A stretch of DNA of 64,000 bases, taken from positions 4,090 through 68,089 of the forward strand of contig JBMFWU010000005.1 in NCBI GenBank assembly GCA_049964955.1. The letters are read 5' to 3'. This DNA comes from Syntrophobacteraceae bacterium. GTDB lineage: Bacteria > Desulfobacterota > Syntrophobacteria > Syntrophobacterales > Syntrophobacteraceae. Positions 2,427 through 41,483 of this stretch are shown here, piece after piece. The notes under the pieces were generated by a model. It did not search any database. It saw nothing but the letters and a program-made list of their open reading frames with translations, and was not told where the DNA came from. How positions within the stretch are numbered: the first letter of the stretch is position 1; each line of letters opens with the position of its first letter. The position numbers and the translations under genes are program-made.

Positions 2427-2454
2427 GCAACTAACAACTAACAACCAGCAACTA
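2427..2454 (-). repeat. heptanucleotide array, family B (4 units; TAGTTGY/TGGTTGT in minus-strand sense)
   Basis: GCAACTA ACAACTA ACAACCA GCAACTA on the plus strand. It begins 3 nt after the TGA stop (2457-2459) of the radical SAM gene, in that gene's sense. Confidence 0.85.
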
Positions 2455-2456
2455 TT

Positions 2457-3740
2457 TCATTCCAGCGGCGGGTTGAAGTAGCCGAGCCTGATGTTTGGAA
2501 ATTCCTCGCGGATCATCGCGATGAGACGGCTTACACCCAGCTTCTTTTCGTGCAGATCGGGTTTTAGGATCTCCAGATACCACTCCGGGTCAATGTTGAG
2601 GTTGCGCATCTGGATCAAATCGAGGCCCGTCTCCGAGATGAGTTTCTTTAAGGCGAGCCATTCGCTTTTCTGGTCGGTAACCCCCGGGAGGACAAAATAG
2701 TTGATCGATGCGAATCCTCCGTTGGCCTTCACCACGGAAAGGGAGCGGTGTGCCTGCTCGAAGCTGAATCCTTTGGGGCGAAAGTACTTCTCATACAATT
2801 CGGGGCGTGCGCTGTTCATGCTCACGCGGATGCTCTGAAGACCCGCGCGGCAAAGTCTTTCGACGGCTTGCGGAAGGCTCCCGTTGGTGTTGAGGTTGAT
2901 TGTGCCTCTGCCGGTAGCTCTACGGATCATCCGGATGGAGGCTTCCAGTACATCGGCCTGGAGCAGCGGTTCGCCTTCACAGCCCTGTCCGAAGCTCACC
3001 ACCGCCCGAGGCGCTTTTTGCAGGTGAGGCACGGCGACCCCGCTTATCTCTTCGGGAGAAGGAACGAAGGTGATGCGCTCCTGGGTTGCGCTCAATCCCG
3101 TTCCCTCCTGGCGGCTGATGCACCCCAGGCAGCGTGCGTTGCACTCCGGCGAAGAGGGAAGCGGCGCTTCCCAGCGGTTCATGAACAGGTTTTTGGCCGC
3201 AGGGCACCCGTAGGTGAGAGCACACTTGCCCAAGTGCTGCACCAGCCGGTTTTCCCGCTCCGTCTTCATGCGCTTGCGGGCGTTGCGTTCGATGAGTTTT
3301 CGGTCGAAATTACAGAAATCCTGCCGCCGGTCCCTGTCGATTCTTACCGCCGGGACCACAAATTCTCCGTTCAGCCAGCCCACCGCGGTGTAGGCGAAAA
3401 GAGGCAGGAGGGGCGCGCCGGCTTTGGTCCTGTAGGCCGGAGAAAAGAGATGGGTATAGGCCGGGGAAATGAAAGCGGCCACCGCGCGCACGGGTTTTGC
3501 CGTGTCGAAGGGATCGGCCGCGAGGGGTTCAAACCGGCGAAGCGTCGGGTTAAAACCCACCGGCACCCGCTCGGGCAAAAGAAACAGTTCGCTTCCTTCC
3601 GGCAGCGGAATCAGTTCGGACGCACGGGGGCATTTCCATTCGCCGGCGCTTGCGCCGGCCATTTCCAGGCCCGGCCAGTCGAGAACGTTGCCGTCGGCAT
3701 CGGCATAAACCAAAGCCGCTCTATTTTTCATTTCACTCAC
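2457..3740 (-). CDS. radical SAM protein with about 190-aa N-terminal domain of unknown function
   Basis: 427 aa. CNARCLGC (CxxxCxxC) cluster motif, followed by GQGCEGEPLL and a TIM-barrel-like region. Confidence 0.75.
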   Translation of the reverse strand: MSEMKNRAALVYADADGNVLDWPGLEMAGASAGEWKCPRASELIPLPEGSELFLLPERVPVGFNPTLRRFEPLAADPFDTAKPVRAVAAFISPAYTHLFSPAYRTKAGAPLLPLFAYTAVGWLNGEFVVPAVRIDRDRRQDFCNFDRKLIERNARKRMKTERENRLVQHLGKCALTYGCPAAKNLFMNRWEAPLPSSPECNARCLGCISRQEGTGLSATQERITFVPSPEEISGVAVPHLQKAPRAVVSFGQGCEGEPLLQADVLEASIRMIRRATGRGTINLNTNGSLPQAVERLCRAGLQSIRVSMNSARPELYEKYFRPKGFSFEQAHRSLSVVKANGGFASINYFVLPGVTDQKSEWLALKKLISETGLDLIQMRNLNIDPEWYLEILKPDLHEKKLGVSRLIAMIREEFPNIRLGYFNPPLE

Positions 3741-3861: not shown

Positions 3862-5052
3862 ATGAGTAACGCCGCTAAGACCACGAGCGGGGCTTTGGGC
3901 CGCCGCATCAAAACCAATATCACGGGGCCGGAGCACCGGTTTGCGATTACTACGCCTGCCGAACTCGCCCCCCTGTGCCTAGACGAAGCGAATTCGCTTG
4001 ATATTCCCGCCCCGGAACTGAGCGAGGCGGGAGTCGAATTTACCGGACGGCTAAAAGACGCCTACACCGCCAATCTGTGGCTGAGAACGGCCGGTCGGGT
4101 GCTCTGTCGGCTTGAGTCCTTCCGTGCGGGCGTTGCCGAAGAGCTCTTCTACAAGGCTTCGCGGATCCCGTGGGAGCTTTGGCTCAGCCGGAAGATACCA
4201 ATCGACGTCGAAGCCGGCGTGCACTATTCCCGGATAAACAGCGAGGGCAGGGTGGCCGAGGTTATCCAGCAGGCTATCGAAAAATGCATCGGGCATCCGG
4301 GGATACCTCAGGGCGCCGGGGCGGAGTTCCGGCAAAAGATTCTCGTTCGCCTCGTCGACAACCACTGCCTTATCAGCCTGGACATGTCGGGAGCCCATCT
4401 CTATCAGAGAGGCTATCGCCTGCGCCATTCAGGGGCGCCTCTACGCGAGACCCTTGCCGCCGCAATTATACTCAAGGCGGGCTGGACGGGCGAGGAGCCC
4501 CTCGTGGACGGCATGTGCGGCTCGGGCGTATTCCCGATCGAGGCGGCCCTTATGGCGCGGCGGATTGCCCCGGGGCTTGCCCGCGAGTTTTTGTTTCAGA
4601 AGTGGCCTTCCTTTCAGGAAAAGACCTGGGAATTTCTGCGGCGAAAGGCCGTGGAGACAGTCTTGCCCAAAGCTCCTCAACCGATCGTTGGAATCGATAT
4701 CGATCCGGAGGCGATCGGGATAGCCGGTGAAAATTCGGGGCGCGCCGGGACCGGTGGTGATATCAGCTGGAAAAACGGGGATTTTTTCGACTTTTTCCCG
4801 GATAAAGAGGGACTGCGGAAAGGCCTTGTGGTTTTGAACCCGCCTTATGGAGTACGCATGGCCGCCGGCGGAACGGGTCTTTACGAAAGAATTGGCGCCC
4901 ACCTGAGACTCAATTTCAAGGGCTGGAGATATGCCGTTCTGGCCAAATCCCGGCTCGAAGCCGCCGCCCTGGGCGCCGGCCGGATGCGGTTGTGGAACAT
5001 CCGGCACGGAGGGTTGAATATCGTTGTGGCAATTGGAGGGAGTGAGCAGTGA
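3862..5052 (+). CDS. THUMP-type class I SAM-dependent RNA methyltransferase (RlmL/Trm14-like)
   Basis: 396 aa. DGMCGSG (SAM motif I) and VLNPPYG (motif IV). The N-terminal half resembles THUMP-containing RNA methylases. The last codons ...GGSEQ* are encoded by the heptamer array. Confidence 0.75.
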   Translation: MSNAAKTTSGALGRRIKTNITGPEHRFAITTPAELAPLCLDEANSLDIPAPELSEAGVEFTGRLKDAYTANLWLRTAGRVLCRLESFRAGVAEELFYKASRIPWELWLSRKIPIDVEAGVHYSRINSEGRVAEVIQQAIEKCIGHPGIPQGAGAEFRQKILVRLVDNHCLISLDMSGAHLYQRGYRLRHSGAPLRETLAAAIILKAGWTGEEPLVDGMCGSGVFPIEAALMARRIAPGLAREFLFQKWPSFQEKTWEFLRRKAVETVLPKAPQPIVGIDIDPEAIGIAGENSGRAGTGGDISWKNGDFFDFFPDKEGLRKGLVVLNPPYGVRMAAGGTGLYERIGAHLRLNFKGWRYAVLAKSRLEAAALGAGRMRLWNIRHGGLNIVVAIGGSEQ

Positions 5053-5106
5053 TCAGTGATAAGTGATCAGAGAAAGCTTCTGCTCCTCACTGCTCACTGC
5101 TCACTA
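5039..5106. repeat. heptanucleotide array, family A, two opposed arms
   Basis: Plus arm AGTGAGC AGTGATC AGTGATA AGTGATC (5041-5068), then spacer, then mirror arm CTCACTGCTCACTGCTCACTA (5086-5106). Each arm is in the sense of the gene it follows and contains that gene's stop codon. Confidence 0.85.
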
Positions 5107-5694
5107 TTTTTCCCTATACAGCCTCATGACTTCCTCGCAGGTGACCAGGGCTTTGAACATCAGGACTTCCTGTTCTATATTTTCCCTTCCGTTCATTTCC
5201 TGGCGGTCGACCAGGGCGAGGGCCCCGAGGATTTCAAAGCCTGCTTCCCGGCAGGCCGAAATGGCCTGGAGAGTGGAAGCGCCGGTTGTAACCACATCGT
5301 CGAGCACGACGACACGGTCTCCGCGTTTTACCTTGCCCTCGATGGAGGCAACGATCCCATGGTCCTTTTGGGCTTTTCTGACGATAAACGACTGGATCGG
5401 CCTGCCTCGCAGCCAGGAGGTGTAGGCGGCGGCATTGGCAAGCGCATCGGCTCCCAGGGTGAGACCTCCCACACCGTCCACCCGCAGGTCGCTCAATGCT
5501 TCGAACACCAGGTTTCCTATGAGGTACTGGCCCTCGGGGTCCAGAGTCACTTTCTTGCAGTTGAAGTAAAAGGGGCTCGTTCCGCCGTGGGCGAGTTTAA
5601 AGCCGGAGGTCTCGGAGTACTGGAAAGAGTAGTCGAAAACAAGCTTTACGAGGCGTTCACGCATTTTGTCGATATTGGGAACTTCACAATTCAT
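5104..5694 (-). CDS. pyrE: orotate phosphoribosyltransferase
   Basis: PRPP-binding motif VVVLDDVVTTGAST. Start set at ATG 5694 (MNCEVPNIDKMRERL; alternative ATG 5664), because the longer track ORF overlaps the upstream gene. Confidence 0.85.
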   Translation of the reverse strand: MNCEVPNIDKMRERLVKLVFDYSFQYSETSGFKLAHGGTSPFYFNCKKVTLDPEGQYLIGNLVFEALSDLRVDGVGGLTLGADALANAAAYTSWLRGRPIQSFIVRKAQKDHGIVASIEGKVKRGDRVVVLDDVVTTGASTLQAISACREAGFEILGALALVDRQEMNGRENIEQEVLMFKALVTCEEVMRLYREK

Positions 5695-6625
5695 CTGAAT
5701 TTTTCTCCTGTCGAAAGGGCCGGTTTTTGCCCTCATATAGCCCGTTTTCCTGCATATAGGTTCGAACGGCGTCAAGATTTCGCTGTTTCTCAAGTGCCCA
5801 CGCGGGGGCCACGAGTTCATCGGGATGCGGGTCTCCGGTGAGTCTCTGGACGATCACGTCCGGGGACAGAAGCGCAAGAAATTCTCCCGCCGCCGCCGCA
5901 TAATTTTCTCGTGTCATGCACGAATAGGCGCCGCTTATGAACATTTCATGGAGCGCGGTCCCCGCAATGACATAGAGCAGGTGTATTTTTACAGCCTGAA
6001 TGTCCTGAAGTGCAAGAAATCTCGCCGTATCGAGCATATTTTCGGTAGTTTCGCCGGGAAGGCCCAGGATGACGTGGGCGCAAACCGGGAGATTTCTCGC
6101 GCGGGCGCGCCGTACCGCATCAGCGAAAGCCTCGGCGCGGTGCCCTCTTCGGATACGCGCGAGGGTGGCATCATTTGCCGACTGGAGGCCTAACTCGAGC
6201 CAGATGAGACGGGTTTTGGCAAGCTCGGCCAGGTAGTCCAGGGTTTGGTCGGCTACGCAATCCGGGCGCGTGCCGATGCTGAGCCCCACGACGTCAGGGT
6301 CTTCGAGCGCCTCGTCGTAAAGTGCCCGGAGCCCGGGAAGCGGTGCATAGGTATTCGAAAACGACTGAAAATAGCCAATGAATTTTTTGGCCTTGTACTT
6401 CCGGGCAAGCCTCTCTTTTCCGGTTCGGATCTGTTCGGAAATGGATGCAAAAGAAGCTGCCCCGGTGCCCGAGCCCTTCTCGTTGCAGTATATGCAGCCC
6501 GAGCGCCCCAGGGTGCCGTCACGGTTCGGGCACGAAAGGCCTGCATCCAGAGATATCTTCTGCACCCGGCATCCGAAGGTCTCCCGCAGGTAGGAATTAT
6601 AGTCTCGGTAGAGTCTTTCGGCCAT
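5684..6625 (-). CDS. radical SAM protein, TIGR01212/YhcC-like
   Basis: ISLDAGLSCPNRDGTLGRSGCIYCNEKGSGTG and downstream motifs are typical of this family. Start set at ATG 6625 (MAERLYRDYNSYL). The 442-codon track ORF would overlap the divergent OmpA-like gene. Confidence 0.8.
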   Translation of the reverse strand: MAERLYRDYNSYLRETFGCRVQKISLDAGLSCPNRDGTLGRSGCIYCNEKGSGTGAASFASISEQIRTGKERLARKYKAKKFIGYFQSFSNTYAPLPGLRALYDEALEDPDVVGLSIGTRPDCVADQTLDYLAELAKTRLIWLELGLQSANDATLARIRRGHRAEAFADAVRRARARNLPVCAHVILGLPGETTENMLDTARFLALQDIQAVKIHLLYVIAGTALHEMFISGAYSCMTRENYAAAAGEFLALLSPDVIVQRLTGDPHPDELVAPAWALEKQRNLDAVRTYMQENGLYEGKNRPFRQEKNSDEL

Positions 6626-7383: not shown

Positions 7384-7848
7384 ATGAGCCTGCAATCGGT
7401 CCGCGCATTTCTCTTTGAACATGCGCCGGACCTTGAAATAATAGAAAAACCATCGAGTACGGCAACAGTTGCAGAAGCCGCTCAGGCGCACGGAGTTGCG
7501 CCCGGACAGATTGCCAAAACGCTCACGCTGTGGCTGAAGGGTGAAGTCATCCTGCTGATTCTGGGTGGCGACGCCAAGATCGACAACCGAAAGTTCAAGG
7601 ATCGGTTCAACGGCAAAGCTAGGATGCTCAGTGGGGACGAGGTCGTCGAGTGGACCGGTCACCCTGTGGGGGGCGTGTGCCCGTTCGGCTTGCCGCAGCA
7701 ATTGAAGGTCTTCGCCGATGTGACATTGAAAAAATTCGATGTCGTCCTTCCCGCGGCAGGCGCCACAAATGCTGCGCTACGGATAACCCCCGATCGCCTG
7801 ATTGAGCTCGTCGGCGCCGAGTGGGTCGATGTGGCGACTGATTACTGA
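7384..7848 (+). CDS. YbaK/EbsC-family aminoacyl-tRNA deacylase
   Basis: 154 aa. HPVGGVCPFGL and overall pattern are typical of YbaK/ProX trans-editing domains. Confidence 0.75.
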   Translation: MSLQSVRAFLFEHAPDLEIIEKPSSTATVAEAAQAHGVAPGQIAKTLTLWLKGEVILLILGGDAKIDNRKFKDRFNGKARMLSGDEVVEWTGHPVGGVCPFGLPQQLKVFADVTLKKFDVVLPAAGATNAALRITPDRLIELVGAEWVDVATDY

Positions 7849-7879
7849 CCACCGTTCACCGTTCACTGCTCACTGCTCA
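7845..7879 (-). repeat. heptanucleotide array, family A, single arm
   Basis: Minus-strand sense reads TGAGCAG TGAGCAG TGAACGG TGAACGG TGGTCAG TAA. The first TGA is the stop of the rsmG-fusion gene. The far end overlaps the ybaK stop on the other strand. Confidence 0.85.
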
Positions 7880-9334
7880 CCGATTTATTGCCTCCCCCCA
7901 CTTGAACAGGGCGATTGCGGTCGCCACCACTCCATTTAGCGACTCCACCCCGGCCGAGATGGAAATGGAGACCGCAGCCTTTCTAAACTTCTCCGGCAGC
8001 CCCGGTCCTTCGATTCCGGGGAGCAGGCCGAAGGTTTCCGGAAATCTGAAATCCGAAATGTTTTTCCCTTCTTTGGAAAGGGGCACGAGCGGCAGTTCTT
8101 CGGGGAGTTCGCCGATCGAGGGGCCCTGCAGCAGGCGGGCGCCAAAGACCGTTGCCCCGGAAGCCCTCACCGACTTGGGATGGTAGGGGTTGGCGGCTTC
8201 GGCGAGCAGGATGATCGCGGAGACGCCGAAAGCCACCGCCGACCGAATGACGGCCCCGACATTTTCGGGGTCCTGGAACGGCACGAAGAGAGTGCATCCT
8301 TCCGGAAGGCCCTCGGAGGGCGACCACTGTTCCATCGGTTTCACTTTTACGAGCAAGAGCGGACAGGAAGTCCCGAAAATATCCAGGGCCTCGAAAAGAG
8401 GAGGTGCCAGCCGATACCACATCAAATGCGAGGGGGCCTCTTCGGGCGGCGGGGCGGTGTCGCCCCGACTCAACCAGGCGAGGCAGTCTTCGGGAATTCG
8501 GGCAAGCGTTTCCGTCACCTGCTTTTGGCCGAAGACGAGCGCCTGCAACTGTTTGCGTATCCCCCGGGGGGTGAGCAGTTTTTTCAACTCCCGGAAAGTG
8601 TCATTATTTTCGCTTTCGATGGTTTTCACCAGGTTTTGCCTTTCGAATTCGGTCCTTCTGAGCCGGGGGGGAGCATCGAGCCTTTCGAAAACAACCAGCC
8701 TGCGCTCATCGCGGGAATCGGGTAATTGGTAATGATGGTCGCCCACGAGCCGGTAGCGGCCGGTGTAGCGTTCCCGGGCCTCTTCTATTTCCTGGTCGCA
8801 TCCCGGGCCCTTCATGAATATCGCCAGGCCCCCCCTGGATAGAGAGCCCGAAATCCTTTCCAAGGTAGCGGGGATGGCCTCCAGTGCCCGGGTTATTATG
8901 CCGTTAACCTCCGTTTCAGTCGAGGGACCGACACCGTGCCCAAGGACGTCGATCCCCCCCAACGAAAGCTCCTGGACCACCCTATGGAGAAATTCGTTGC
9001 GGTTTCGCCTGCTTTCGGCGAGGATGACTTCGAGCTGCGGATAGGCGATCTTTAGAGGGACTCCCGGCATGCCGGGGCCGCTGCCGATATCCATGAGGGG
9101 CGAGGGCAGCTCGATGATTTTGCCGGGCAGGATCGAGTCCACATAAAGTTTGCGGACCATGTTTGCGAAGTTGTGAATCCGGGTGAGATTGAGTTCGGTG
9201 TTGCATTGTCTCAGCAGCAGGTGATATTTCCACAGGCGCTCCACGTCGCTACGCGGCAGGGATATGCCGGATGCGACCAGCAGCTTTGAAAGGTGCGCCG
9301 CATCGGGTTCCGCGCCCTGTTTGTTTGGGGGCAT
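7877..9334 (-). CDS. fusion of an RsmG (GidB)-like 16S rRNA methyltransferase and a SpoU/TrmH-family RNA 2'-O-methyltransferase
   Basis: N-terminal half: NLTRIHNFANMVRKLYVDSI...LMDIGSGPGMPGVPLKIAYPQLEVILAES (RsmG pattern). C-terminal half: FQDPENVGAVIRSAVAFG...LLPGIEGPGLP...ISISAGVESLNGVVATAIALF (SPOUT/TrmH motifs). Start set at ATG 9334 (MPPNKQ). Confidence 0.8.
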   Translation of the reverse strand: MPPNKQGAEPDAAHLSKLLVASGISLPRSDVERLWKYHLLLRQCNTELNLTRIHNFANMVRKLYVDSILPGKIIELPSPLMDIGSGPGMPGVPLKIAYPQLEVILAESRRNRNEFLHRVVQELSLGGIDVLGHGVGPSTETEVNGIITRALEAIPATLERISGSLSRGGLAIFMKGPGCDQEIEEARERYTGRYRLVGDHHYQLPDSRDERRLVVFERLDAPPRLRRTEFERQNLVKTIESENNDTFRELKKLLTPRGIRKQLQALVFGQKQVTETLARIPEDCLAWLSRGDTAPPPEEAPSHLMWYRLAPPLFEALDIFGTSCPLLLVKVKPMEQWSPSEGLPEGCTLFVPFQDPENVGAVIRSAVAFGVSAIILLAEAANPYHPKSVRASGATVFGARLLQGPSIGELPEELPLVPLSKEGKNISDFRFPETFGLLPGIEGPGLPEKFRKAAVSISISAGVESLNGVVATAIALFKWGEAINR

Positions 9335-9373
9335 GAAATCAGTTCCTTTTGGGGTACGCCCGCGGGAAGCTCT

Positions 9374-10120
9374 ATGAACGGGGACTATTTTTTTCATCGA
9401 TCGTGGCCTATATTCTACCGAGACAACCACCTGCTGGTTCTCTACAAGCCTGCCGGCCTCCTGGCTCAAGGCGATGAGACCGGGGAAACGTCGCTGCTCG
9501 AACTGGGTAAGCTCTGGCTAAAGGATGTTTATAACAAACCCGGCCGGGTTTTTCTCGGCCTTGTCCATCGCCTGGACCGGCCGGTCGCCGGGGTCATGCT
9601 CTTTTGCCGAACCTCCAAGGCCGCCGCAAGAATAAGCGAACAGTTCCGCGGGGGCAAAGCGGAAAAATATTATCTAGCGGTATTGGAGGGAAAACTGAAG
9701 GAAAAATCGGGCAGTCTCGTCAATTTGATCGAAAAGGGCGAGAATCGGTCGAGCAGGGTCGTTTCGGGAAAAACTCCCGAAGCTCGTGAGGCGAGGCTAT
9801 CTTTCACGGTTCTGGATACGGCACAGGGGCGCAGCCTGGTTCGCATCAGACTCGAAACCGGGCGCAGGCACCAGATACGGCTTCAGTTCGCCCACATCGG
9901 TCATCCGGTTGTCGGGGACCTTCGGTATGGGGCCCCCGCAGCGCTTCCCGAAAAACAAATCGCCCTTTTTGCCAAAGAGCTTTTCGTGGACCATCCCGTT
10001 CGGGGAGAAAGACTCCGATTCGAGTCGCCCCTTCCTCGCGGCTGGCCCTGGCAAGACCAAACCGACGGCCCTCCGTGGGATTGGAGAGAGCTCGAAGGGC
10101 AATTAGGATTGAATTTATGA
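9374..10120 (+). CDS. RluA-family pseudouridine synthase
   Basis: Motifs LLVLYKPAGLL, GLVHRLDRPVAGVMLF (catalytic HRLD) and RRHQIRLQFAHIGHPVVGD. Start set at ATG 9374. Confidence 0.8.
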   Translation: MNGDYFFHRSWPIFYRDNHLLVLYKPAGLLAQGDETGETSLLELGKLWLKDVYNKPGRVFLGLVHRLDRPVAGVMLFCRTSKAAARISEQFRGGKAEKYYLAVLEGKLKEKSGSLVNLIEKGENRSSRVVSGKTPEAREARLSFTVLDTAQGRSLVRIRLETGRRHQIRLQFAHIGHPVVGDLRYGAPAALPEKQIALFAKELFVDHPVRGERLRFESPLPRGWPWQDQTDGPPWDWRELEGQLGLNL

Positions 10121-24462: not shown

Positions 24463-25902
24463 ATGAGGCAGTTGGATGTCGGCCGGCAGGGAGAAACTAA
24501 GGGTGCCAAAGATGCGGTGACGCAAAAGGCCAACGGAAAGGGCTTCAAAGGCGCAGTTGAGGATCATGAAGAAGCGATGAAGATGCGCGACCTGCTCAAG
24601 CGCTCGATCGCCGCCATGTGCGCTCTGGCCAGGGATGAAAACACGGCGGTGAATGCCAGGCTTCTCGATTTCAAAAATACCGTGCAAAGAGAATCGGCCG
24701 TCGGAGAGTTGGAAGAAAGCCTCCAGGCATTAAAAAGAGCGATACTTGAAAGTGACGATGCGGAGGGCGCGACGCCCAAGGCAGAAACTGCCGACCCGGC
24801 AAAAAATTCCGCTCCTGCCGGGGGCACAAAGGCTGTTCTCGATCAACTCCGCTCCATATTTCTCCACCTGGCCGGGGAATTCGATCGTGACTTCGGAGAA
24901 GAATATTCCGGGCGAGTGGCCATGCTCCGCGGGAAAATTCAAAAATGTGCCCGCATCGAAGATGTCGTGAGTCTCAAGCCGGACATCGCCACGCTCATCG
25001 AACTCTACAACCAGTCGATAGACGAGGAACGCACCCAGGTCACCGAGTTCATCGCGGAGATGAGCGAAGGCCTGCTGGAACTCGAGCGGCTCTATATCGG
25101 CACGATGAGCCAGACGGGGCAGAGCGAGAAGGAAAATAAGAATTTCAACCAGATCGTCGAAAACCACATGGAAGACATGAAAAAATCGGCGCAGCTCAGT
25201 ACGACGCTCGCCGACTTCAGGGAACTCGTCCTGACCCGGCTGGCATCGATCCGCAGCGCTCTGGAGGCAAAGCGCCGCTCGGAGGCGCTGCGCCATGAGA
25301 GTCTCCGAGAGGAGATGGAATCGCTCAATCAAAACCTGAGCCGGATGAAAAAGGAAGTCGATCAGGTCCATGAGAAGCGCAAGGCCCTGGAAAAGGAGGT
25401 ACTCATCGACTCGCTCACCGGAGTGGCGAACCGGCGGGCATTGAAGGAACGCCTCAAAAACGAAATGTACCGCTTCCAGAGATATAACCAGATCTTTTCC
25501 CTCGTTGTCTTCGATATCGACCGCTTTAAGTCCATAAACGATCAGCACGGCCACTGGGCTGGCGACAGATGCCTCAAGGAGATCGTAAAACGCATCGGCC
25601 CCATCCTGCGGGAAACCGATCTTATCGGACGGTGGGGAGGGGACGAGTTTGTGTTGATTTTTGCGGCCACTTGCCTGGAAAGCGCGGCTACCGTGGCGGA
25701 AAGACTGCGGAAATTGATCCAGAACACCCGTCTGGTTTACCACAAGCAAGAAATCAGCCTGAGCATAAGCATCGGGGTGGCCCAGGCCCTCGAGGGCGAC
25801 CAGTCCATCGAAAAGCTCTTCAACCGGGCCGATAAGGCCATGTACAAGTCAAAGAAGGCGGGAGGAAATAGTGTCAGTGTCAGTGAAAACAGTGAACAGT
25901 GA
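24463..25902 (+). CDS. diguanylate cyclase (GGDEF domain) with long coiled-coil N-terminal region
   Basis: DSLTGVANRR, FDIDRFKSINDQHGH, RWGGDEFVLIF. The last codons ...SVSVSENSEQ* are encoded by heptamer repeats. Confidence 0.9.
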   Translation: MRQLDVGRQGETKGAKDAVTQKANGKGFKGAVEDHEEAMKMRDLLKRSIAAMCALARDENTAVNARLLDFKNTVQRESAVGELEESLQALKRAILESDDAEGATPKAETADPAKNSAPAGGTKAVLDQLRSIFLHLAGEFDRDFGEEYSGRVAMLRGKIQKCARIEDVVSLKPDIATLIELYNQSIDEERTQVTEFIAEMSEGLLELERLYIGTMSQTGQSEKENKNFNQIVENHMEDMKKSAQLSTTLADFRELVLTRLASIRSALEAKRRSEALRHESLREEMESLNQNLSRMKKEVDQVHEKRKALEKEVLIDSLTGVANRRALKERLKNEMYRFQRYNQIFSLVVFDIDRFKSINDQHGHWAGDRCLKEIVKRIGPILRETDLIGRWGGDEFVLIFAATCLESAATVAERLRKLIQNTRLVYHKQEISLSISIGVAQALEGDQSIEKLFNRADKAMYKSKKAGGNSVSVSENSEQ

Positions 25903-26022
25903 GCAGTGAACAGTGAAGGGTGAACAGTGAAGAGTGAAGAGTGAAGAGTGAACTGCTCAGTAGTTCTTACTGATCACCGTTCACCGATCACTGTTCACTG
26001 ATTAAATCACTGCTCACTGACC
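25870..26022. repeat. heptanucleotide array, family A, largest instance, two opposed arms
   Basis: Plus arm AGTGTC AGTGTC AGTGAAAAC AGTGAAC AGTGAGC AGTGAAC AGTGAAG GGTGAAC AGTGAAG x3 AGTGAAC (25870-25952). Mirror arm TCACCGT TCACCGA TCACTGT TCACTGA ... TCACTGC TCACTGA (25974-26020). Confidence 0.9.
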
Positions 26023-26480
26023 TTAATGGGATGCCTTTTTCCGTTGAGTTCGATGAAAAATCCATGCCCCGATTCGTCCTCGCGTATGAAGTCGGCGAGT
26101 TGATAATAGGCCGGGCGCGAAAATCTTGCCGGAAATCGGCCTTCGGCCGTCCTGCAATACATAACATTGTCTTTTGCGCTCATAAGCGTGTCGGGGTCGA
26201 GCGTTTCGGCGCGCGAAAGGTTTTTTAGGCCGATCCGGATCCGTTCCTTGCCCGCATCGTCCCGTTGCCTGTCCACCCGGGAGACCACGAAGGGCGTGTC
26301 GGCCACTTCGAGCAGGCAGCGTCCCTTCAAATCGCAGAGAATATACTCGCCCGTAGGTAAGAGTTCGAGCTTTTCATAGAAGGCCTCCAGAATTTCGGCC
26401 CGGAAGATCCTGCTTCCATTGTAGAACCAGTCTCCGTTTTCATCTACCCGGATGCCGCTGGGTTCGAGTTCTGCGATCAT
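26007..26480 (-). CDS. DUF1285-like protein
   Basis: 157 aa from ATG 26480 (MIAELEPSGIRVDENGDWFYNGSRIFRAEILEAFY). The upstream part of the 337-codon track ORF is out-of-frame overlap with queH. Ends ...KVSEQ* inside the heptamer array. Confidence 0.6.
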   Translation of the reverse strand: MIAELEPSGIRVDENGDWFYNGSRIFRAEILEAFYEKLELLPTGEYILCDLKGRCLLEVADTPFVVSRVDRQRDDAGKERIRIGLKNLSRAETLDPDTLMSAKDNVMYCRTAEGRFPARFSRPAYYQLADFIREDESGHGFFIELNGKRHPIKVSEQ

Positions 26481-27006
26481 TACAAAACCTTTCCATCTCT
26501 GAGTAAATACACCCGCAATATTGTTGCCTGTACAACCCTCGGGCCTCTGCCTCCCTTTGCCCCTCGCGCCACCCGACCCGGAAGTCCCGGTAGAGGAATG
26601 CGATCCCCTGTTTTCGCCCAGCCTCTTCGGCAATGGAGGCGATGAGTTCGTGCTTCTGGCGCCTGCTGTAGAGAAGCGTGGTGGAGAAGGCGTCGAAACC
26701 GCTCTTTTTGGCCAGGCGCGCCGTTGCTTCCAGCCGCAGCGAGTAGCAATACATGCAGCGGTTGGTTTCACGAAAGGCCACCTGTCGAAAGAAGGTCTCC
26801 GGGTCGTAGTCCTCCCGTACGATGAGGGGCAGGTCCCGGTCCTGAGCGCAGGAGCGCAGGGTTTCAAGCCTCTTTTCGAATTCCTGGTACGGCTGGATGT
26901 GAGGATTGTAGAAAAATCCGTGCACGACAAAGTCTTCGCCGCGCAGCGCCGAAACCGGGTAGAGCGAACAGGGGCCGCAACAAATATGAAGAAGGATTCG
27001 CGGCAT
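26440..27006 (-). CDS. queH: epoxyqueuosine reductase QueH (DUF208)
   Basis: MPRILLHICCGPCS N-terminus, CMYCYSLRL and YCGCIYSE Cys motifs. Start set at ATG 27006. Confidence 0.8.
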   Translation of the reverse strand: MPRILLHICCGPCSLYPVSALRGEDFVVHGFFYNPHIQPYQEFEKRLETLRSCAQDRDLPLIVREDYDPETFFRQVAFRETNRCMYCYSLRLEATARLAKKSGFDAFSTTLLYSRRQKHELIASIAEEAGRKQGIAFLYRDFRVGWREGQREAEARGLYRQQYCGCIYSEMERFCNDRRTRTQRHPGR

Positions 27007-27035
27007 GGCCAACACTCCATGTAGACTAAGAGCTA

Positions 27036-27765: not shown

Positions 27766-27941
27766 GGCGTAGGTTGGGGTGACCGAAAGGGAACCCCAAC
27801 AAACCCTCCGGATTACCGATAAACCATCCGGTCAGGCGTAGGTTGGGGTGACCGAAAGGGAACCCCAACAAACCCTCCGGATTACCGATAAACCATCCGG
27901 TCAGGCGTAGGTTGGGGTGACCGAAAGGGAACCCCAACAAA
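27766..27941 (+). repeat. tandem array of 69-bp units, each containing a REP hairpin (2 full units plus 1 partial)
   Basis: Unit GGCGTAGGTTGGGGTGACCGAAAGGGAACCCCAACAAACCCTCCGGATTACCGATAAACCATCCGGTCA starts at 27766, 27835 and 27904. Hairpin is GTTGGGGT/ACCCCAAC with 5' GTAG. Confidence 0.9.
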
Positions 27942-35615: not shown

Positions 35616-35627
35616 ATTTTCCTTCGG

Positions 35628-35676
35628 GCAACCAGCAACTAACAACTAACAACCAGCAACTAGCAACCAGCAACTA
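35628..35676 (-). repeat. heptanucleotide array, family B (7 units)
   Basis: Plus strand GCAACCA GCAACTA ACAACTA ACAACCA GCAACTA GCAACCA GCAACTA. In minus sense this is TAGTTGC TGGTTGC TAGTTGC TGGTTGT TAGTTGT TAGTTGC TGGTTGC. The first TAG is the hypC stop. The array ends 12 nt before the next gene's ATG. Confidence 0.9.
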
Positions 35677-35904
35677 ATCATGATTGGCGAACGCGGCCAT
35701 CTCGCGGAGGAGGCGAAGCGATTCTTCGGCTTCCGCGGGGTCTACCACATGAAGCGCAAAACCCGCATGCATTATGACAAAATCCCCGAGCTGCGGCTCT
35801 TGCGACAAAAGCAGAAGGGAGGCCTTTCTTAACGAGTCTCCAATCCGCACGGTCGCAACCCCGTCTTCGATCTGCACCACCTCACCCGGAATGGCCAGGC
35901 ACAT
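35674..35904 (-). CDS. hypC: hydrogenase maturation chaperone HypC/HupF family
   Basis: 76 aa starting MCLAIPGEVV, the invariant HypC N-terminus. Confidence 0.9.
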   Translation of the reverse strand: MCLAIPGEVVQIEDGVATVRIGDSLRKASLLLLSQEPQLGDFVIMHAGFALHVVDPAEAEESLRLLREMAAFANHD

Positions 35905-35966
35905 TGCGTATCCTTTTCTAAATAGTGTCCATCCGCAAACCCGATCTCACGTGCGGACCGGACCGG

Positions 35967-36063
35967 ATTTCCCCCCTTTATCAAAAGGGGGGGGGATTTG
36001 ACGGAAGTTCCAGCTGATTTCCTGAGAAAATCCCCCTAAATCCCCCTTTTTCAAAGGGGGACT
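35967..36063. repeat. two C-run/G-run hairpins
   Basis: CCCCCCTTT-atc-AAAAGGGGGG (35971-35995) and CCCCCTTT-ttc-AAAGGGGG (36042-36060), plus the half-copy AAAATCCCCCTAAATCCCCC. They lie between the hydrogenase protease stop and the hypC start. Confidence 0.7.
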
Positions 36064-39367: not shown

Positions 39368-39665
39368 GAGTACCTCCTCCAGGCCATCAGACGATAAAAA
39401 AAACGGCAATTCTCTTCCAACACACCAATACGACTGCAAAAAAAAGCTTTTAGAATATGTGGGGGGGGAATGCAATACATTTTACGGGCCAAAATTTTTA
39501 TTCGCCACCCGGGAGTTTTTGCTTTCCCTTTTGCAGGAGCCGGATTAAATACCCGATGCAAATTATACGCAGTGAGAGCGGAGAGATGGAAGAGGGCCGG
39601 GCGCCGAATTTTTGACCGCTCTAAGCTACTTAATTGTAAGAAGTTTTGCAAGAAAGAAATTATCT

Positions 39666-41414
39666 ATGTTAAAGAAGGTCCTTAAATATCTTTGGCCCTA
39701 TCGGTTCCCTTTTCTTCTGGCGCTGCTCGAAGTGTTCATCATGAGCGGCTGCGAACTGTTAAAGCCCTGGCCGTTAAAGATCATAATCGACAACGTGCTG
39801 AGCGCAAAACCGGCCACCTGGAGTTTGCTCAAGGGATATTCTGCTACAGGCCTCCTGGTTCTTGCGACCGGCGGTCTTGTGGTCATATACATCGTTTTGG
39901 GCAGTGTCACGCTGTTAAACAACTACACTACCATCAAGATCGGTCAGAAGATGGTAAATGACATGCGCCGGGACCTCTACGCCCAACTGCAGCGGCTCTC
40001 CCTGGCCTTCCACAACCGCCGCCAGGTGGGAGACCTGCTCTACCGGGTCACCGCCGATACCTATGCCATCCAGAGCCTCACGATGAACGGGGTCTTCCCC
40101 ATCGTGACCGCCCTGGTCCTTTTGAGCGGCATGTTTGCCGTGATGATACGCATCGACTGGGAATTGACCCTTCTTTCCCTGAGTGTTATCCCGGCCCTTT
40201 TTGCCTCCATCTCCGTCATGAGCCGCAGGATCACTTCGGCCTCCATTCTGGCGCGCCAGCAGGAAAGCGAAGTCTATTCGGTCGTGCAGCGGGCGATGTC
40301 GGCCATACGCATCATCCAGGCCTTTACGAAAGAGGAAGAAGAGCACCGCAAGTTCATGAACGCAAGTGATCTGAGCCTGGAAGCGAGCCTCAAGCTCTAC
40401 ACCCTCCAGACCTTTTACTCGGGCATCGTAAACGTCGTGATGGCCGCCGGGACAGCGCTGGTTGTCTGGGTGGGGGCCAGGCACGTCCAAAGCGGGCAGC
40501 TCACGATCGGGGGGATAATCGTCTTTACGACCTACCTGGCTTCGCTCTACGGGCCCATAAATACGATCTGCCAGACCTGGGGCATGGTGCAGGGCGCCAA
40601 GGTGGGGGTGGACCGCGTCTTTGAGATCCTCGAGATCGAACGCGACATAAAGGAAGGTCCCCGCGCTTTTCCGAAATCGGGAACCAGGGGAAAGGTCGTC
40701 CTGGAAAACGTGAGCTTTCACTATTCGGCGCAGCAGTCGGTGCTAAAGGGCATAAACCTGAGCGTCAATCCGGGGGAGAAAATCGCTTTCGTGGGGCCGA
40801 CCGGCGTTGGAAAATCGACCCTGGTAAGCCTCATCCCGCGATTCTACGACCCGCAGGAAGGTCGAGTCCTTATCGATGATGTGGACATTTGCGAATACCA
40901 GCTCAAATCGCTTCGAGGCCAGATATCCATGGTCCTCCAGCCTCCGCTCGTCTTTCCGATTTCCGTCCGGGAAAACATCGCCTACGGAAGACCGGGGGCC
41001 TCGATCGAAGAGGTCGTAAACGCAGCCAAACTGGCCAGAATACACGATTCGATCGAAAGACTGCCCGAAAAATATGACACCGTCGTGGGAGAGCAGGGCG
41101 CCACACTTTCGGAAGGGGAGCGGCAGCGGATCACCATTGCCCGCGCCATTCTTCGCGATTCCCCGATTCTGATTCTCGACGAGCCGACTTCTTCGGTGGA
41201 TGCCGAAACCGAAGCGCTCATCATGGAGGGGCTCGAAGAGCTCTCCATGGGCCGAACCACCTTCATTATCGCCCACAGGCTTTCCACCGTCCGTAAAGCC
41301 GACCGGATCATCGTGCTTGGCAAAGGCGAGATCATCGAGCAGGGAAGTTTCAGCGAACTGATACGGGGGGAGGGGCCTTTTGCCGCGCTCTATCAATATC
41401 AATTCAGTGAATAG
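39666..41414 (+). CDS. ABC exporter, fused permease/ATPase (ABCB/MsbA-like)
   Basis: Six-TM N-terminal domain. GPTGVGKST (Walker A), LSEGERQRITIARAIL (signature), ILILDEPTS (Walker B). Start set at ATG 39666. Confidence 0.9.
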   Translation: MLKKVLKYLWPYRFPFLLALLEVFIMSGCELLKPWPLKIIIDNVLSAKPATWSLLKGYSATGLLVLATGGLVVIYIVLGSVTLLNNYTTIKIGQKMVNDMRRDLYAQLQRLSLAFHNRRQVGDLLYRVTADTYAIQSLTMNGVFPIVTALVLLSGMFAVMIRIDWELTLLSLSVIPALFASISVMSRRITSASILARQQESEVYSVVQRAMSAIRIIQAFTKEEEEHRKFMNASDLSLEASLKLYTLQTFYSGIVNVVMAAGTALVVWVGARHVQSGQLTIGGIIVFTTYLASLYGPINTICQTWGMVQGAKVGVDRVFEILEIERDIKEGPRAFPKSGTRGKVVLENVSFHYSAQQSVLKGINLSVNPGEKIAFVGPTGVGKSTLVSLIPRFYDPQEGRVLIDDVDICEYQLKSLRGQISMVLQPPLVFPISVRENIAYGRPGASIEEVVNAAKLARIHDSIERLPEKYDTVVGEQGATLSEGERQRITIARAILRDSPILILDEPTSSVDAETEALIMEGLEELSMGRTTFIIAHRLSTVRKADRIIVLGKGEIIEQGSFSELIRGEGPFAALYQYQFSE

Positions 41415-41453
41415 TTGTTAGTTGCTAGTTGTTAGTTGTTAGTTGTTGGTTGT
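41412..41453 (+). repeat. heptanucleotide array, family B (6 units)
   Basis: TAGTTGT TAGTTGC TAGTTGT TAGTTGT TAGTTGT TGGTTGT. The first TAG (41412-41414) is the stop codon of the ABC exporter gene. Confidence 0.9.
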
Positions 41454-41483
41454 TGGGCGTCAGATACTAAACATTGAGGGGCT

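What the first reader, a model, noticed from the sequence alone, without database searches (positions are those of the whole stretch)
25870..26022. Family A: TGA-bearing heptanucleotide arrays (CAGTGAN)n placed exactly on gene 3' ends
About 12 tandem 7-nt units (AGTGAAC/AGTGAGC/AGTGAAG...) start inside the last codons of the diguanylate cyclase gene and continue about 50 nt past its TGA. A mirror set then follows. In the sense of the convergent DUF1285 gene it is again (CAGTGAN)n, beginning in that gene's final codons. The same motif occurs at 5039-5106 and 7845-7879. Because the period is 7, successive TGAs fall in frames 0, +1 and +2, so any three units close all three reading frames. Opposed arms are complementary (CAGTGAACAGTGA at 25890-25902 versus TCACTGTTCACTG at 25988-26000). 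They could fold into long slippery hairpins and act as bidirectional terminators, but the 7845-7879 array has only one arm. I do not recognise this as a described repeat class. Possible roles are frame-independent translational stops, terminators, protein or sRNA-binding platforms, or slippage-prone microsatellites.
Basis: seen in the sequence. Interest (0 to 1): 0.65.

Follow-up and report, generated by a model that had tools for sequence, protein, structure and literature searches.

The report
Heptamer repeat arrays at gene ends
Runs of a 7-base repeat that contains a stop codon sit directly on the ends of genes here and pair into a long hairpin where two genes face each other; this is another example of a bacterial repeat class that has been described before and whose function is still unknown.

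Summary
(GTGANNN)n arrays occur at 5038-5106, 7849-7884 and 25870-26020: 14 three-unit matches against 0.01 expected. A second family, (TAGTTGY)n, occurs at 2427-2455, 35625-35677 and 41410-41461.

All 8 arms lie in the stop-bearing sense of the gene whose 3' end they touch. Six of those genes take their stop codon from the array.

The polarity also holds elsewhere. In 120 loci from at least 15 phyla, 42 AGTGANN arrays abut a gene end in sense and 4 in antisense.

Arm pairs fold strongly (-68.5 kcal/mol, z -9). Single arms are unstructured, and no U tract follows any hairpin.

Close relatives in metagenomes differ from the window by indels only inside the arrays. More distant orthologues lack the arrays and stop at the conserved C terminus.

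The class is not new. Heptamer arrays within 50 bp of stop codons on the sense strand, including inverted pairs, were described in Xanthomonas and Nostoc (Rehm 2015). The stops-in-all-frames property was described for TAACTGA repeats (MacGregor 2015).

Verdict: a new member of a known, unexplained class. It is slippage-driven and polar. The hairpin follows from two facing sense arrays. The all-frame stop is a consequence of the unit, not a shown function.

The parts
25870..25957 (+). Family A array in the sense of the GGDEF gene: AGTGTC x2, one 9-mer, then nine heptamers ([AG]GTGA[AG][ACG]). It supplies the last ~10 codons (SVSVSENSEQ) and the stop TGA at 25900-25902. It forms the 5' arm of the hairpin.
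25958..25971 (.). Spacer and hairpin tip between the two arms (CTCAGTAGTTCTTACTG contains a 5-bp mini-palindrome).
25972..26020 (-). Family A array in the sense of the minus-strand DUF1285-like gene (about 7 units, more degenerate, with GGTGATC/GGTGAAC variants). It supplies codons KVSEQ and the stop TGA at 26009-26007. It forms the other arm of the hairpin.
24463..25902 (+). Diguanylate cyclase (GGDEF) gene. The domain ends at residue 469 of 479, and the tail is encoded by the array.
26007..27020 (-). ORF whose C-terminal ~190 aa is a DUF1285-like protein. Orthologues end ...ELNG(K/N)R(F/Y)PI, and the window adds KVSEQ* from the array.
5038..5074 (+). Family A array in the sense of the RlmL-like methyltransferase gene (3862..5052). 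The stop TGA 5050-5052 lies in unit 2, giving the tail GSEQ*.
5086..5106 (-). Family A array (AGTGAGC x3) in the sense of the phosphoribosyltransferase-like gene 5104..5820(-). Its TAG overlaps the first unit. It pairs with 5038-5074 (-34.5 kcal/mol).
7849..7884 (-). Single family A array in the sense of the GidB/SpoU methyltransferase gene 7877..9469(-). The stop TGA 7879-7877 lies in unit 1. The array fills the whole 28-nt spacer to the convergent gene 7384..7848 and is unstructured.
2427..2455 (-). Family B array (TAGTTGY/TGGTTGY), starting 3 nt after the TGA of the radical-SAM gene 2457..3740(-) and in its sense. Unstructured.
35625..35677 (-). Family B array in the sense of hypC (35674..35904, -). 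The stop TAG 35676-35674 lies in unit 1. The array ends about 10 nt before the RBS and start of the next minus-strand gene.
41410..41461 (+). Family B array (TAGTTGT x7) in the sense of the ABC-transporter gene 39612..41414. The stop TAG 41412-41414 lies in unit 1. The next co-directional ORF starts at 41484.

Best explanation
These are heptanucleotide simple-sequence-repeat arrays of the class known as STRR or long-SSR heptamers. The closest described examples are the Xanthomonas GGGAATC and Nostoc GGGGAYT arrays and the Beggiatoaceae TAACTGA repeats.

Shown:
- They are tandem 7-nt units, dispersed at several gene ends.
- Each array is anchored with its 5' end on an ORF boundary. The G-richer, stop-bearing strand is the mRNA strand of the gene that ends there.
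- Indels between close relatives lie only inside the arrays, as replication slippage would produce.
- The arrays are gained and lost over longer evolutionary distances.

Consequence of the sequence, not a demonstrated function: the unit carries TGA (or TAG), and 7 is not a multiple of 3. Any reading frame is therefore closed within three units. This lets an array overrun a native stop harmlessly and donate a short tail and a new stop. Six of 8 genes here use an array stop, with tails such as SEQ*.

Geometric necessity: where two genes converge, each carries its own sense array. The two arrays are therefore complementary and form a long hairpin or cruciform.

Inferred: the arrays are transcribed as the first part of the 3' UTR. 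The paired form probably acts like a REP-type stem-loop, marking or stabilising transcript ends, rather than as a canonical intrinsic terminator. Single arms probably have little or no function of their own.
For: Tandem period-7 arrays far beyond chance.

Placement in the window: 8 of 8 arms are sense to the abutting gene, and all flanking ORFs are real genes.

Placement elsewhere:
- In 120 loci from many phyla, 42 AGTGANN arrays have a gene 3' end within -40..+30 nt in sense and 4 in antisense. Stops fall at -5, -12 and -19, the TGA of units 1-3.
- Counting only arrays that do not overlap the ORF gives 21 against 4.
- 16 of 20 randomly chosen upstream ORFs have Pfam domains.

Arm pairs: 21 of 23 lie within 110 nt, all with the AGTGA arm first and none with the TCACT arm first.

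Folding: pairs give -68.5 kcal/mol (z -9.0) and -34.5 kcal/mol (z -4 to -5). Single arms give z of -0.1 or higher.

Relatives:
- A ~92%-identical relative (7077-nt contig in X3) differs by deletions of 7+4+18 nt in the plus arm and 2 nt in the minus arm. A second relative (X2) differs by 8+2 nt. Neither has indels in the flanks.
- Orthologues at 64-69% identity end at the conserved C terminus with no array (L122, L123). One carries a different 3-unit array plus an inverted arm (L121).

Transcription: RNA-seq of Methylotuvimicrobium buryatense shows heptamer arrays after a stop are transcribed. Coverage falls gradually, from about 100 to 55 to 15, and a residual 10-19 reads through.

Literature: the same placement rule, inverted pairs and transcription are reported in PMC4692102. 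The stop-in-all-frames argument is in PMC4679880.
Against: - No function is shown for any array. The REP-like role of the hairpins rests on analogy alone.
- The strict orientation is not explained by slippage plus tolerance alone. This applies to the array 5' end facing the ORF, and to arm pairs being AGTGA-first 21 to 0.
- The same 7-mer variant recurs at unrelated loci of one genome: CAGTGAR here, AGTGACC at four Scytonema loci, AGTGATG in two Pyrinomonadaceae contigs. This hints at a dispersal process or a sequence-specific reader that the explanation does not include.
- The unit-number differences come from short-read metagenome contigs, where repeats can be collapsed by the assembler.
- My gene calls in the 120 loci are from a crude longest-ORF caller.
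Confidence: 0.6

Rival explanations
1. The primary, selected function is a bidirectional transcription terminator. The arrays would exist to build long hairpins that stop convergent transcription.
For: Both paired loci lie between convergent genes and fold very strongly. The hairpin spans exactly from one stop codon to the other. In Xanthomonas, transcripts start or stop at such repeats more often than at control repeats. In M. buryatense, coverage falls about 85% across the post-stop arrays.
Against: - Four of the six loci in the window are single arms with no structure (z of -0.1 or higher).
- No U tract follows any hairpin, and the terminator scan found nothing at these sites.
- Of the 42 sense arrays elsewhere, 29 are followed by a gene running the same way, often 30-110 nt away, and 11 by a convergent gene. 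That matches the background.
- A need for a hairpin does not explain why the AGTGA arm always comes first (21 to 0).
- The arms are unequal in length (73 vs 49 nt) and change length independently in relatives.
- The RNA-seq shows a gradual decline with read-through, not a sharp end.
Confidence: 0.12
2. The arrays are multivalent binding platforms for a sequence-specific single-strand binder with a footprint of about 7 nt. Candidates are a cold-shock or S1-type OB-fold protein, an sRNA, or the 16S rRNA 3' tail. The binder would act on the mRNA just behind the stop codon.
For: - The period is fixed at 7 and the GTGA core is invariant.
- Single arms are notably unstructured.
- The unit variant is specific to each genome.
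- Polarity relative to the ORF is strict.
- Some units (GGTGATC at 25972-26002, minus sense) match the extended Shine-Dalgarno sequence that pairs with the 16S 3' end (this comparison is from my own knowledge).
- MacGregor 2015 proposed S1, Csp or CsrA binders for TAACTGA.
Against: - No candidate binder has been identified.
- Units are heterogeneous within an array.
- Arrays are present or absent among orthologues and vary in unit number, as expected for weak or no selection.
- Family B (TAGTTGY) shares nothing with family A except the period and the polarity.
Confidence: 0.12
3. The arrays are selected as frame-independent, fail-safe translational stops. They would terminate read-through or frameshifted ribosomes in any frame.
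For: - Every unit of both families carries a stop in the sense strand, and three units close all frames (direct from the sequence).
- Arrays begin at stop codons.
- Among 86 other heptamer arrays in the fetched loci, 76% carry a stop on at least one strand, against roughly 49% by my rough estimate for random heptamers.
- Oriented by the stop-bearing strand, 11 abut a gene end in sense and 4 in antisense.
Against: - Xanthomonas GGGAATC arrays follow the same stop-codon-proximal, sense-strand rule and have no stop on either strand (checked by reading the unit).
- Orientation by G>C predicts polarity at least as well (22 vs 6).
- Arrays run to 9-29 units where three would do.
- The second arm of a pair faces gene starts as often as gene ends, where stops have no translational meaning.
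- A published survey reports no selection for additional in-frame stops in bacteria (PMC6764699; title and abstract only).
Confidence: 0.06
4. The arrays are a mobile, REP- or MITE-like element family spread by a transposase. One candidate is the RAYT encoded at 27967-28500.
For: The motif is multi-copy and dispersed at gene ends. Metagenome contigs pile up on the array alone, with depth up to about 970 against 9.65 in the flanks.
Against: - There are no conserved flanks or termini around the arrays.
- The units are direct repeats, not palindromes with a GTAG head.
- The RAYT's own repeats are an unrelated GTTGGGGT...ACCCCAAC hairpin.
- Array length varies in steps close to whole units.
Confidence: 0.04
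5. The arrays are phase-variation (contingency) loci that switch the flanking genes on and off by changes in unit number.
For: Unit number differs between close relatives, and 7 is not a multiple of 3.
Against: The arrays lie behind the functional domains and at or after the stop, so slippage only changes a few tail residues. The genes are housekeeping types: rRNA methyltransferases, hypC, an ABC transporter. None lies in a promoter or 5' coding region.
Confidence: 0.02

Closest known systems
G-rich heptameric repeats GGGAATC (Xanthomonas campestris/axonopodis) and GGGGA(C/T)T (Nostoc PCC 7120), Rehm et al. 2015, PLoS One, PMC4692102
   Same: - Tandem 7-nt units, typically about 4 or more copies, dispersed over the genome.
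- Mostly intergenic.
[quoted passage not shown]
- Frequent convergent inverted pairs able to form stem-loops.
- Transcribed; function unknown.
   Different: - The units here ([AG]GTGANN and TAGTTGY) have no G tracts, so the G-quadruplex idea proposed there cannot apply.
- The units here carry a stop codon, so they can supply the gene's stop.
- The host is a different, unidentified soil or sediment bacterium with 57% GC.
TAACTGA direct repeats of marine Beggiatoaceae, some Cyanobacteria and Bacteroidetes, MacGregor 2015, Front Microbiol, PMC4679880
   Same: - Intergenic heptamer direct repeats whose forward strand has stops in all three frames, so they can overlap a coding end by at most about 18 nt.
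- No predicted RNA structure for single arrays.
- Scattered phylogenetic distribution.
   Different: - The unit sequence is different.
- TAACTGA repeats lie mostly a few nucleotides upstream of start codons, and a role in translation initiation was proposed.
- Here the arrays are anchored on stop codons, and inverted pairs are common. Only one indirect repeat was reported in BOGUAY.
STRR (short tandemly repeated repetitive) heptamers of heterocystous cyanobacteria (Mazel et al. 1990) and long SSRs of Mrazek et al. 2007 (the STRR unit sequences are from my own memory; the Mrazek summary is as given in PMC4679880)
   Same: - Tandem heptanucleotides in non-coding DNA.
- Heptamers are the commonest 5-11-nt long SSRs in many genomes, and slippage is proposed as their origin.
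- The Scytonema loci found here carry (AGTGACC)n, one base from the reverse of STRR2. The window's AACAGTG is one base from a rotation of STRR3 (CAACAGT).
   Different: The lineage is different. Placement and polarity relative to stop codons were not part of the STRR or LSSR descriptions, as far as I could read.
REP/BIME extragenic palindromes of enterobacteria and pseudomonads (functional analogue only)
   Same: Dispersed stem-loops at gene 3' ends and between genes, lacking a U tract, transcribed into the mRNA 3' end. REPs are known to protect upstream mRNA from 3' exonucleases (own knowledge).
   Different: REPs are single imperfect palindromes with a GTAG head that are mobilised by RAYT transposases. 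Here the arms are tandem heptamers, single arms exist, and the neighbouring RAYT has unrelated repeats.

Membership tests
Stop-codon-proximal heptamer SSR arrays (Rehm 2015 class; STRR/LSSR heptamers) | Tandem head-to-tail units of exactly 7 nt, three to four or more copies | tested here: met
   TRF finds period 7, 9.4 copies at 25888-25953, plus the other arrays. 14 three-unit matches against 0.01 expected. Family B has 11 matches against 0 expected.
Stop-codon-proximal heptamer SSR arrays (Rehm 2015 class; STRR/LSSR heptamers) | Located within about 50 bp of, or overlapping, a stop codon with the G-richer strand on the coding strand | tested here: met
   8 of 8 arms in the window, with the stop inside the array for 6 genes. 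42 sense against 4 antisense in 120 other loci.
Stop-codon-proximal heptamer SSR arrays (Rehm 2015 class; STRR/LSSR heptamers) | Convergent inverted pairs able to form stem-loops | tested here: met
   25870-26020 gives -68.5 kcal/mol (z -9) and 5038-5106 gives -34.5 kcal/mol. 21 of 23 pairs elsewhere have the same geometry within 110 nt.
Stop-codon-proximal heptamer SSR arrays (Rehm 2015 class; STRR/LSSR heptamers) | Many dispersed copies of the same unit across the genome | tested here: inconclusive
   Three family A loci and three family B loci lie in 64 kb. Metagenome contigs with unrelated flanks pile up on the array.
Stop-codon-proximal heptamer SSR arrays (Rehm 2015 class; STRR/LSSR heptamers) | G tracts giving G-quadruplex potential (specific to the Rehm sub-type) | tested here: not met
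   No GGG run occurs in either unit family. This element belongs to the broader class, not to the G4 sub-type.
Slippage-prone microsatellite | Length polymorphism, in steps close to whole units, confined to the array | tested here: met
   The X3 relative lacks 7+4+18 nt in the plus arm and 2 nt in the minus arm. The X2 relative lacks 8+2 nt. Neither has an indel in about 1 kb of flanks. Caveat: these are short-read contigs.
TAACTGA repeats (MacGregor 2015) | Unit TAACTGA | tested here: not met
   The units are [AG]GTGANN and TAGTTGY.
TAACTGA repeats (MacGregor 2015) | Placement within a few nucleotides upstream of a start codon | tested here: not met
   The arrays are anchored on stops. Family A loci lie between convergent genes. 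Family B arrays end 10-170 nt before the next start.
Rho-independent (intrinsic) terminator | GC-rich stem-loop followed directly by a U tract | tested here: not met
   Stems are present at the two paired loci, but no T run follows. The consensus scan finds no terminator at the site. Single arms have no stem.
REP/BIME elements mobilised by RAYT | Imperfect palindrome of about 20-40 nt with a conserved GTAG head, associated with a RAYT gene | tested here: not met
   The arms are direct heptamer repeats without a GTAG head. The RAYT-like gene at 27967-28500 is flanked by a different hairpin repeat (69-bp units at 27766-27941).
Phase-variable contingency SSR | Repeat tract in a promoter or 5' coding region, so that unit changes switch expression | tested here: not met
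   All tracts lie at or behind the stop codon of housekeeping-type genes.
Known structured RNA families (Rfam 15) | Match to a curated covariance model | tested here: not met
   No match at gathering threshold anywhere in the window.

The most novel reading that the evidence does not exclude
The arrays are cis-sites of an undiscovered system found across many phyla. It would read single-stranded nucleic acid in 7-nt register, starting at the ORF boundary. Two forms are conceivable. One is an OB-fold or ribosome-associated factor that loads on the mRNA where translation ends. The other is a transcription- or translation-coupled process that creates and extends the repeats at exactly that point. 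Either would explain three things that slippage plus tolerance does not: the strict 5'-anchored polarity (42 to 4), the AGTGA-arm-first geometry of pairs (21 to 0), and the genome-specific unit variant.
Probability: 0.12. Interest if true: 0.75.

Novelty: new member of a known kind. Interest (0 to 1): 0.3.

Why it matters
Heptamer arrays are among the commonest non-coding repeats in many bacterial phyla. After 35 years they still have no accepted function or origin.

This locus adds three things:
- It is a clean non-G4, stop-bearing example. It shows that quadruplex formation cannot be the common denominator of the class.
- It documents that such arrays overwrite native stop codons and give unrelated proteins the same short tail.
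- It shows, in a broad sample, a roughly 10-to-1 polarity for the AGTGANN family.

The practical consequence concerns annotation. C-terminal residues and stop positions next to such arrays are repeat-derived and unstable. Hairpins at convergent genes can arise simply from two sense arrays meeting.

If a reader or generator of the 7-nt register exists, it would be a widespread and unknown part of bacterial gene-end biology.

Tried and rejected
I used a pattern scan of genome contigs instead.
Only its flanks were laid.

Searches that found nothing:
- Exact-protein look-ups for the GGDEF protein, SOD and HypC found no record.
- blastn of the window against the 120 loci gave no hit. tblastn gave only distant homologues.
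- The metagenome scan with the RlmL-like protein returned one locus, a 69% orthologue without an array.
- Rfam found nothing.
- Literature searches for the unit sequences themselves found no bacterial paper.

Ideas considered and dropped:
- A HutP-like (NAG-N4)n reading: trivial for any AG-containing heptamer, and the protein is restricted to one lineage.
- A Rho rut site: the sense strand is C-poor.
- Hfq (ARN)n: the register does not fit.
- An R-loop origin in the ribosome-free zone: the arrays start at or before the stop, and family B is not purine-rich.
- Origin by duplication of each gene's own stop heptamer: the in-frame stop is often in unit 2 or 3, and unrelated genes share one unit.
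- Arms enclosing a small four-helix-bundle gene cassette (a lead from earlier notes): not present in this window. In the 120 loci, pairs are separated by no more than 110 nt in 21 of 23 cases.
Full report
**1. What is in the sequence**

The plus arm:
- After two in-frame hexamers (AGTGTC x2) and one 9-mer, nine heptamers ([AG]GTGA[AG][ACG]) run from 25891 to 25953.
- Tandem Repeats Finder reports period 7, 9.4 copies, 86% matches.
- The upstream ORF 24463..25902 is a genuine diguanylate cyclase (Pfam GGDEF, E=1e-47, domain ending at residue 469 of 479).
- Its last ten codons (SVSVSENSEQ) and its TGA (25900-25902) are array sequence. The array continues 51 nt beyond the stop.

The minus arm:
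- After a 14-nt spacer, a second and more degenerate array (25972-26020) reads the same motif on the minus strand.
- It supplies the last five codons (KVSEQ) and the TGA (26009-26007) of the convergent ORF 26007..27020.
- The DUF1285 assignment of that ORF is weak (E=2.6e-4). Its homologues cover only the C-terminal half.

Other sites and significance:
- The same family occurs at 5038-5074(+) paired with 5086-5106(-), and as a single arm at 7849-7884(-).
- GTGANNNGTGANNNGTGA has 14 matches in the window against 0.01 expected from shuffles.
- A second heptamer family, (TAGTTGY)n, lies at 2427-2455(-), 35625-35677(-) and 41410-41461(+). It has 11 matches against 0 expected.

**2. Placement in the window**

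All flanking ORFs are real genes by Pfam or by unmistakable sequence. They are an RlmL-like methyltransferase, a phosphoribosyltransferase-like protein, a tRNA-editing-domain protein, a GidB/SpoU methyltransferase, a radical-SAM protein, Fe/Mn SOD, HypC and an ABC transporter.

Every one of the eight arms lies in the stop-bearing sense of the gene whose 3' end it touches:
- Six genes use a stop codon that belongs to an array unit (unit 1 or 2).
- One gene has its TAG overlapping the first unit.
- One gene stops 2 nt before the array.
- The only antisense contact is trivial. The array at 7849-7884 fills the whole 28-nt spacer, so it also touches the TGA of the convergent gene 7384..7848.

Arrays of the same family lie on both strands within 3 kb, each following its own gene. 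The orientation therefore follows gene direction, not replication direction.

**3. Structure**

- The paired loci fold into very stable hairpins on either strand. 25880-26025 gives -68.5/-68.7 kcal/mol (z about -9). 5036-5110 gives -34.5/-33.9 kcal/mol (z -4.1/-5.3).
- The four single arrays are at or below the structure of shuffled sequence (z between -0.1 and +1.4).
- No T run follows either hairpin. The consensus terminator scan finds nothing there, and Rfam has no match in the whole window.
- The arms are unequal (73 and 49 nt) and are not exact mirror copies.
- The simplest reading: each convergent gene carries its own sense array, and two sense arrays facing each other are necessarily complementary.

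**4. The same thing elsewhere**

Instead I scanned 185,579 species genomes for (AGTGANN)x3-AGTGA.

Distribution:
- The hits come from at least 15 phyla. They include many Pyrinomonadaceae and Blastocatellia and other Acidobacteriota, Saprospiraceae and Prevotella, Planctomycetota, Gemmatimonadota, Chloroflexota, Cyanobacteria (Scytonema), Campylobacterota, Desulfobacterota, Nitrospirota, Bacillota and several Proteobacteria.
- Loci from one genome share the same unit variant: AGTGACC at four Scytonema loci, AGTGATG in two contigs each of a Pyrinomonadaceae and a Planctomycetales MAG, and AGTGAAA in a Saprospiraceae MAG.

Polarity, using a crude longest-ORF gene caller:
- 42 of 113 non-edge arrays have a gene 3' end within -40..+30 nt of their 5' end in sense. 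Only 4 have one at their other end in antisense (binomial p about 1e-9).
- The stop positions cluster at -5, -12 and -19, the TGA of units 1, 2 and 3.
- Counting only arrays that do not overlap the ORF gives 21 against 4 (p about 1e-3).
- Of 20 randomly chosen upstream ORFs, 16 have confident Pfam domains reaching their C termini. The result is therefore not an artefact of spurious ORFs being closed by the array.

Arm pairs:
- Inverted pairs are common, especially in Acidobacteriota.
- All 21 short-range pairs (loops of 17-110 nt) have the AGTGA arm first on either strand. None has the opposite geometry.

Context and other heptamers:
- Of the 42 sense arrays, 29 are followed by a co-directional gene, often 30-110 nt away, and 11 by a convergent gene. 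This is close to the background of gene-pair types.
- The other heptamer arrays in these loci (86, many different units) show the same tendency. Oriented by the G>C strand, 22 are sense and 6 antisense. Oriented by the stop-bearing strand, 11 are sense and 4 antisense. 76% carry a stop on at least one strand.

**5. Dynamics**

- Metagenome contigs from mine drainage, rhizosphere, soil and peat pile up on the array alone. Depth reaches about 970 against 9.65 in the flanks, and the loose ends are unrelated. The motif is therefore dispersed in those communities.
- Two contigs span the whole locus. A 7077-nt contig in X3, about 92% identical, differs from the window by deletions of 7, 4 and 18 nt inside the plus arm and 2 nt in the minus arm. 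A 727-nt contig in X2 differs by 5+2+1 nt in the plus arm and 1+1 nt in the minus arm. All 31 and all 10 gap letters lie inside the arrays, and none lies in about 1 kb of flank.
- This is the pattern expected from replication slippage. The caveat is that short-read assemblers can collapse repeats.
- At greater distance the arrays come and go. An orthologue of the DUF1285-like protein at 64% identity ends ...ELNGNRYPI-TGA with no array (L122). One at 67% ends ...ELNGKRFPI+AVKSDG* in a different three-unit GTGANNN array followed by an inverted arm (L121). The window has ...ELNGKRHPI+KVSEQ*.
- A 69% orthologue of the RlmL-like gene has no array either.
- Arrays are thus lineage-specific acquisitions that overwrite the native stop and add a short repeat-encoded tail.

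**6. Transcription test in a cultured carrier**

- One hit lies in Methylotuvimicrobium buryatense 5G (L096). A 180-nt spacer between two minus-strand genes holds, in sense and directly after the stop, (GGTGAAG)4(AGAGGAA)5. It then holds (AGTGAAT)11 in antisense.
The flanks could be laid with stranded raw RNA-seq reads.
- Coverage on the gene's strand is about 100 at the gene's end, about 55 just past the sense arrays, and about 15 before the antisense array. It is 10-19 on the far side, then rises again in the next gene.
- No sharp pile-up of ends was reported.
- The arrays are therefore transcribed as 3' UTR, and most transcripts fade out across them with some read-through. This is compatible with a transcript-end zone. 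It is not the signature of an efficient discrete terminator.
- This is a different organism and unit, so it is only indirect evidence for the window.

**7. What is known**

- Rehm et al. 2015 (PMC4692102) described GGGAATC arrays in Xanthomonas and GGGGA(C/T)T arrays in Nostoc. The arrays are dispersed and have a preference for four units. They lie mostly between co-directional ORFs. [quoted passage not shown]
- The same study found arrays lying closer to the ORF on their 5' side, whatever that ORF's orientation. It counted 70-75 convergent inverted pairs per Xanthomonas genome. Most arrays are transcribed, and the function is unknown.
- That is the rule I measured for AGTGANN. GGGAATC has no stop codon on either strand, so the polarity does not depend on the TGA.
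- MacGregor 2015 (PMC4679880) described TAACTGA arrays. That paper states explicitly that the forward strand stops all three frames, so the repeats can overlap a coding end by at most 18 nt. It also summarises Mrazek's finding that heptamers are the commonest 5-11-nt long SSRs, with slippage proposed as the cause.
- Cyanobacterial STRR heptamers (Mazel 1990; unit sequences from my own memory) are one base away from the units seen here.
- I found no bacterial paper containing the AGTGANN or TAGTTGT arrays themselves.
- Earlier agents of this scan reached the same class assignment for Geobacter-family, Blastocatellia and Gemmatimonadales windows. I verified the Rehm rule by reading the paper and by my own counts.

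**8. Interpretation**

The class assignment is secure. The mechanism I commit to is as follows:
- The arrays are slippage-driven SSRs that live at ORF boundaries with a fixed polarity.
- The stop in the unit is what allows them to invade the last codons and to donate the stop. This is a consequence of the sequence, not a selected fail-safe.
- The hairpin at convergent genes is the geometric result of two sense arrays meeting. It may act like a REP-type stem-loop on transcript ends (inferred).

Three things remain unexplained, here and in the literature: why the array's 5' end always faces the ORF, why pairs are always AGTGA-arm-first, and why one genome uses one unit variant. These leave room (about 0.12) for an unknown reader or generator of the 7-nt register.

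The finding is a new member of a known, unexplained kind, so I score its interest at 0.3.

Noticed in passing
window 27766-27941 and 27967-28500: A 69-bp unit is repeated 2.6 times at 100% identity, each unit with a GTTGGGGT...ACCCCAAC hairpin. This repeat system is separate from the heptamers.
   Followed up: no
window 25870-25890: Inside the coding tail of the GGDEF gene the repeat unit is a hexamer (AGTGTC x2, read as SVSV) and then a 9-mer. It becomes a heptamer only just before the stop, at 25891. The in-frame part of the array looks adapted to stay open.
   Followed up: no
window 26007-27020: Homologues of this 337-aa ORF are about 190 aa long and match only its C-terminal half. The closest one (P0001, 355 aa) carries a QueH domain in front. 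The N-terminal half of the window ORF may be a mis-extended start or a separate or fused gene.
   Followed up: partly
window 5041-5052, 25891-25902, 26018-26007: Three unrelated proteins end in the same array-encoded tripeptide SEQ* (AGT GAG CAG TGA). Array-derived tails such as VTSDE*, VNSEK* and VTSDK* also appear in other genomes' proteins.
   Followed up: partly
L096 3655-3830 (Methylotuvimicrobium buryatense 5G, NZ_KB455575.1): Three different heptamer arrays share one 180-nt spacer: (GGTGAAG)4 and (AGAGGAA)5 in sense after a stop, then (AGTGAAT)11 in antisense. RNA reads with loose ends show that the AGAGGAA array recurs at another transcribed locus.
   Followed up: partly
L071 (Thermomicrobiales MAG), L117 and L072 (Saprospiraceae and Bacteroidota MAGs): Single 8-kb stretches hold 5-12 heptamer arrays of several unrelated units, for example GTAGCCG, AAGTGGC and TAAATCG. 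Some genomes are saturated with this repeat class.
   Followed up: no
window 35940-36060: G- and C-run inverted repeats (CCCCCTTT...AAAGGGGGGGG, twice) lie upstream of the hypC / hydrogenase-maturation-protease region. They may be a separate hairpin or regulatory element.
   Followed up: no
window 25881-25954, in runs X1-X4: In four unrelated environmental metagenomes, summed contig depth on the array is about 10 to 100 times that of the flanks. CAGTGAA-type arrays are therefore common in soil, peat and mine-drainage communities.
   Followed up: partly
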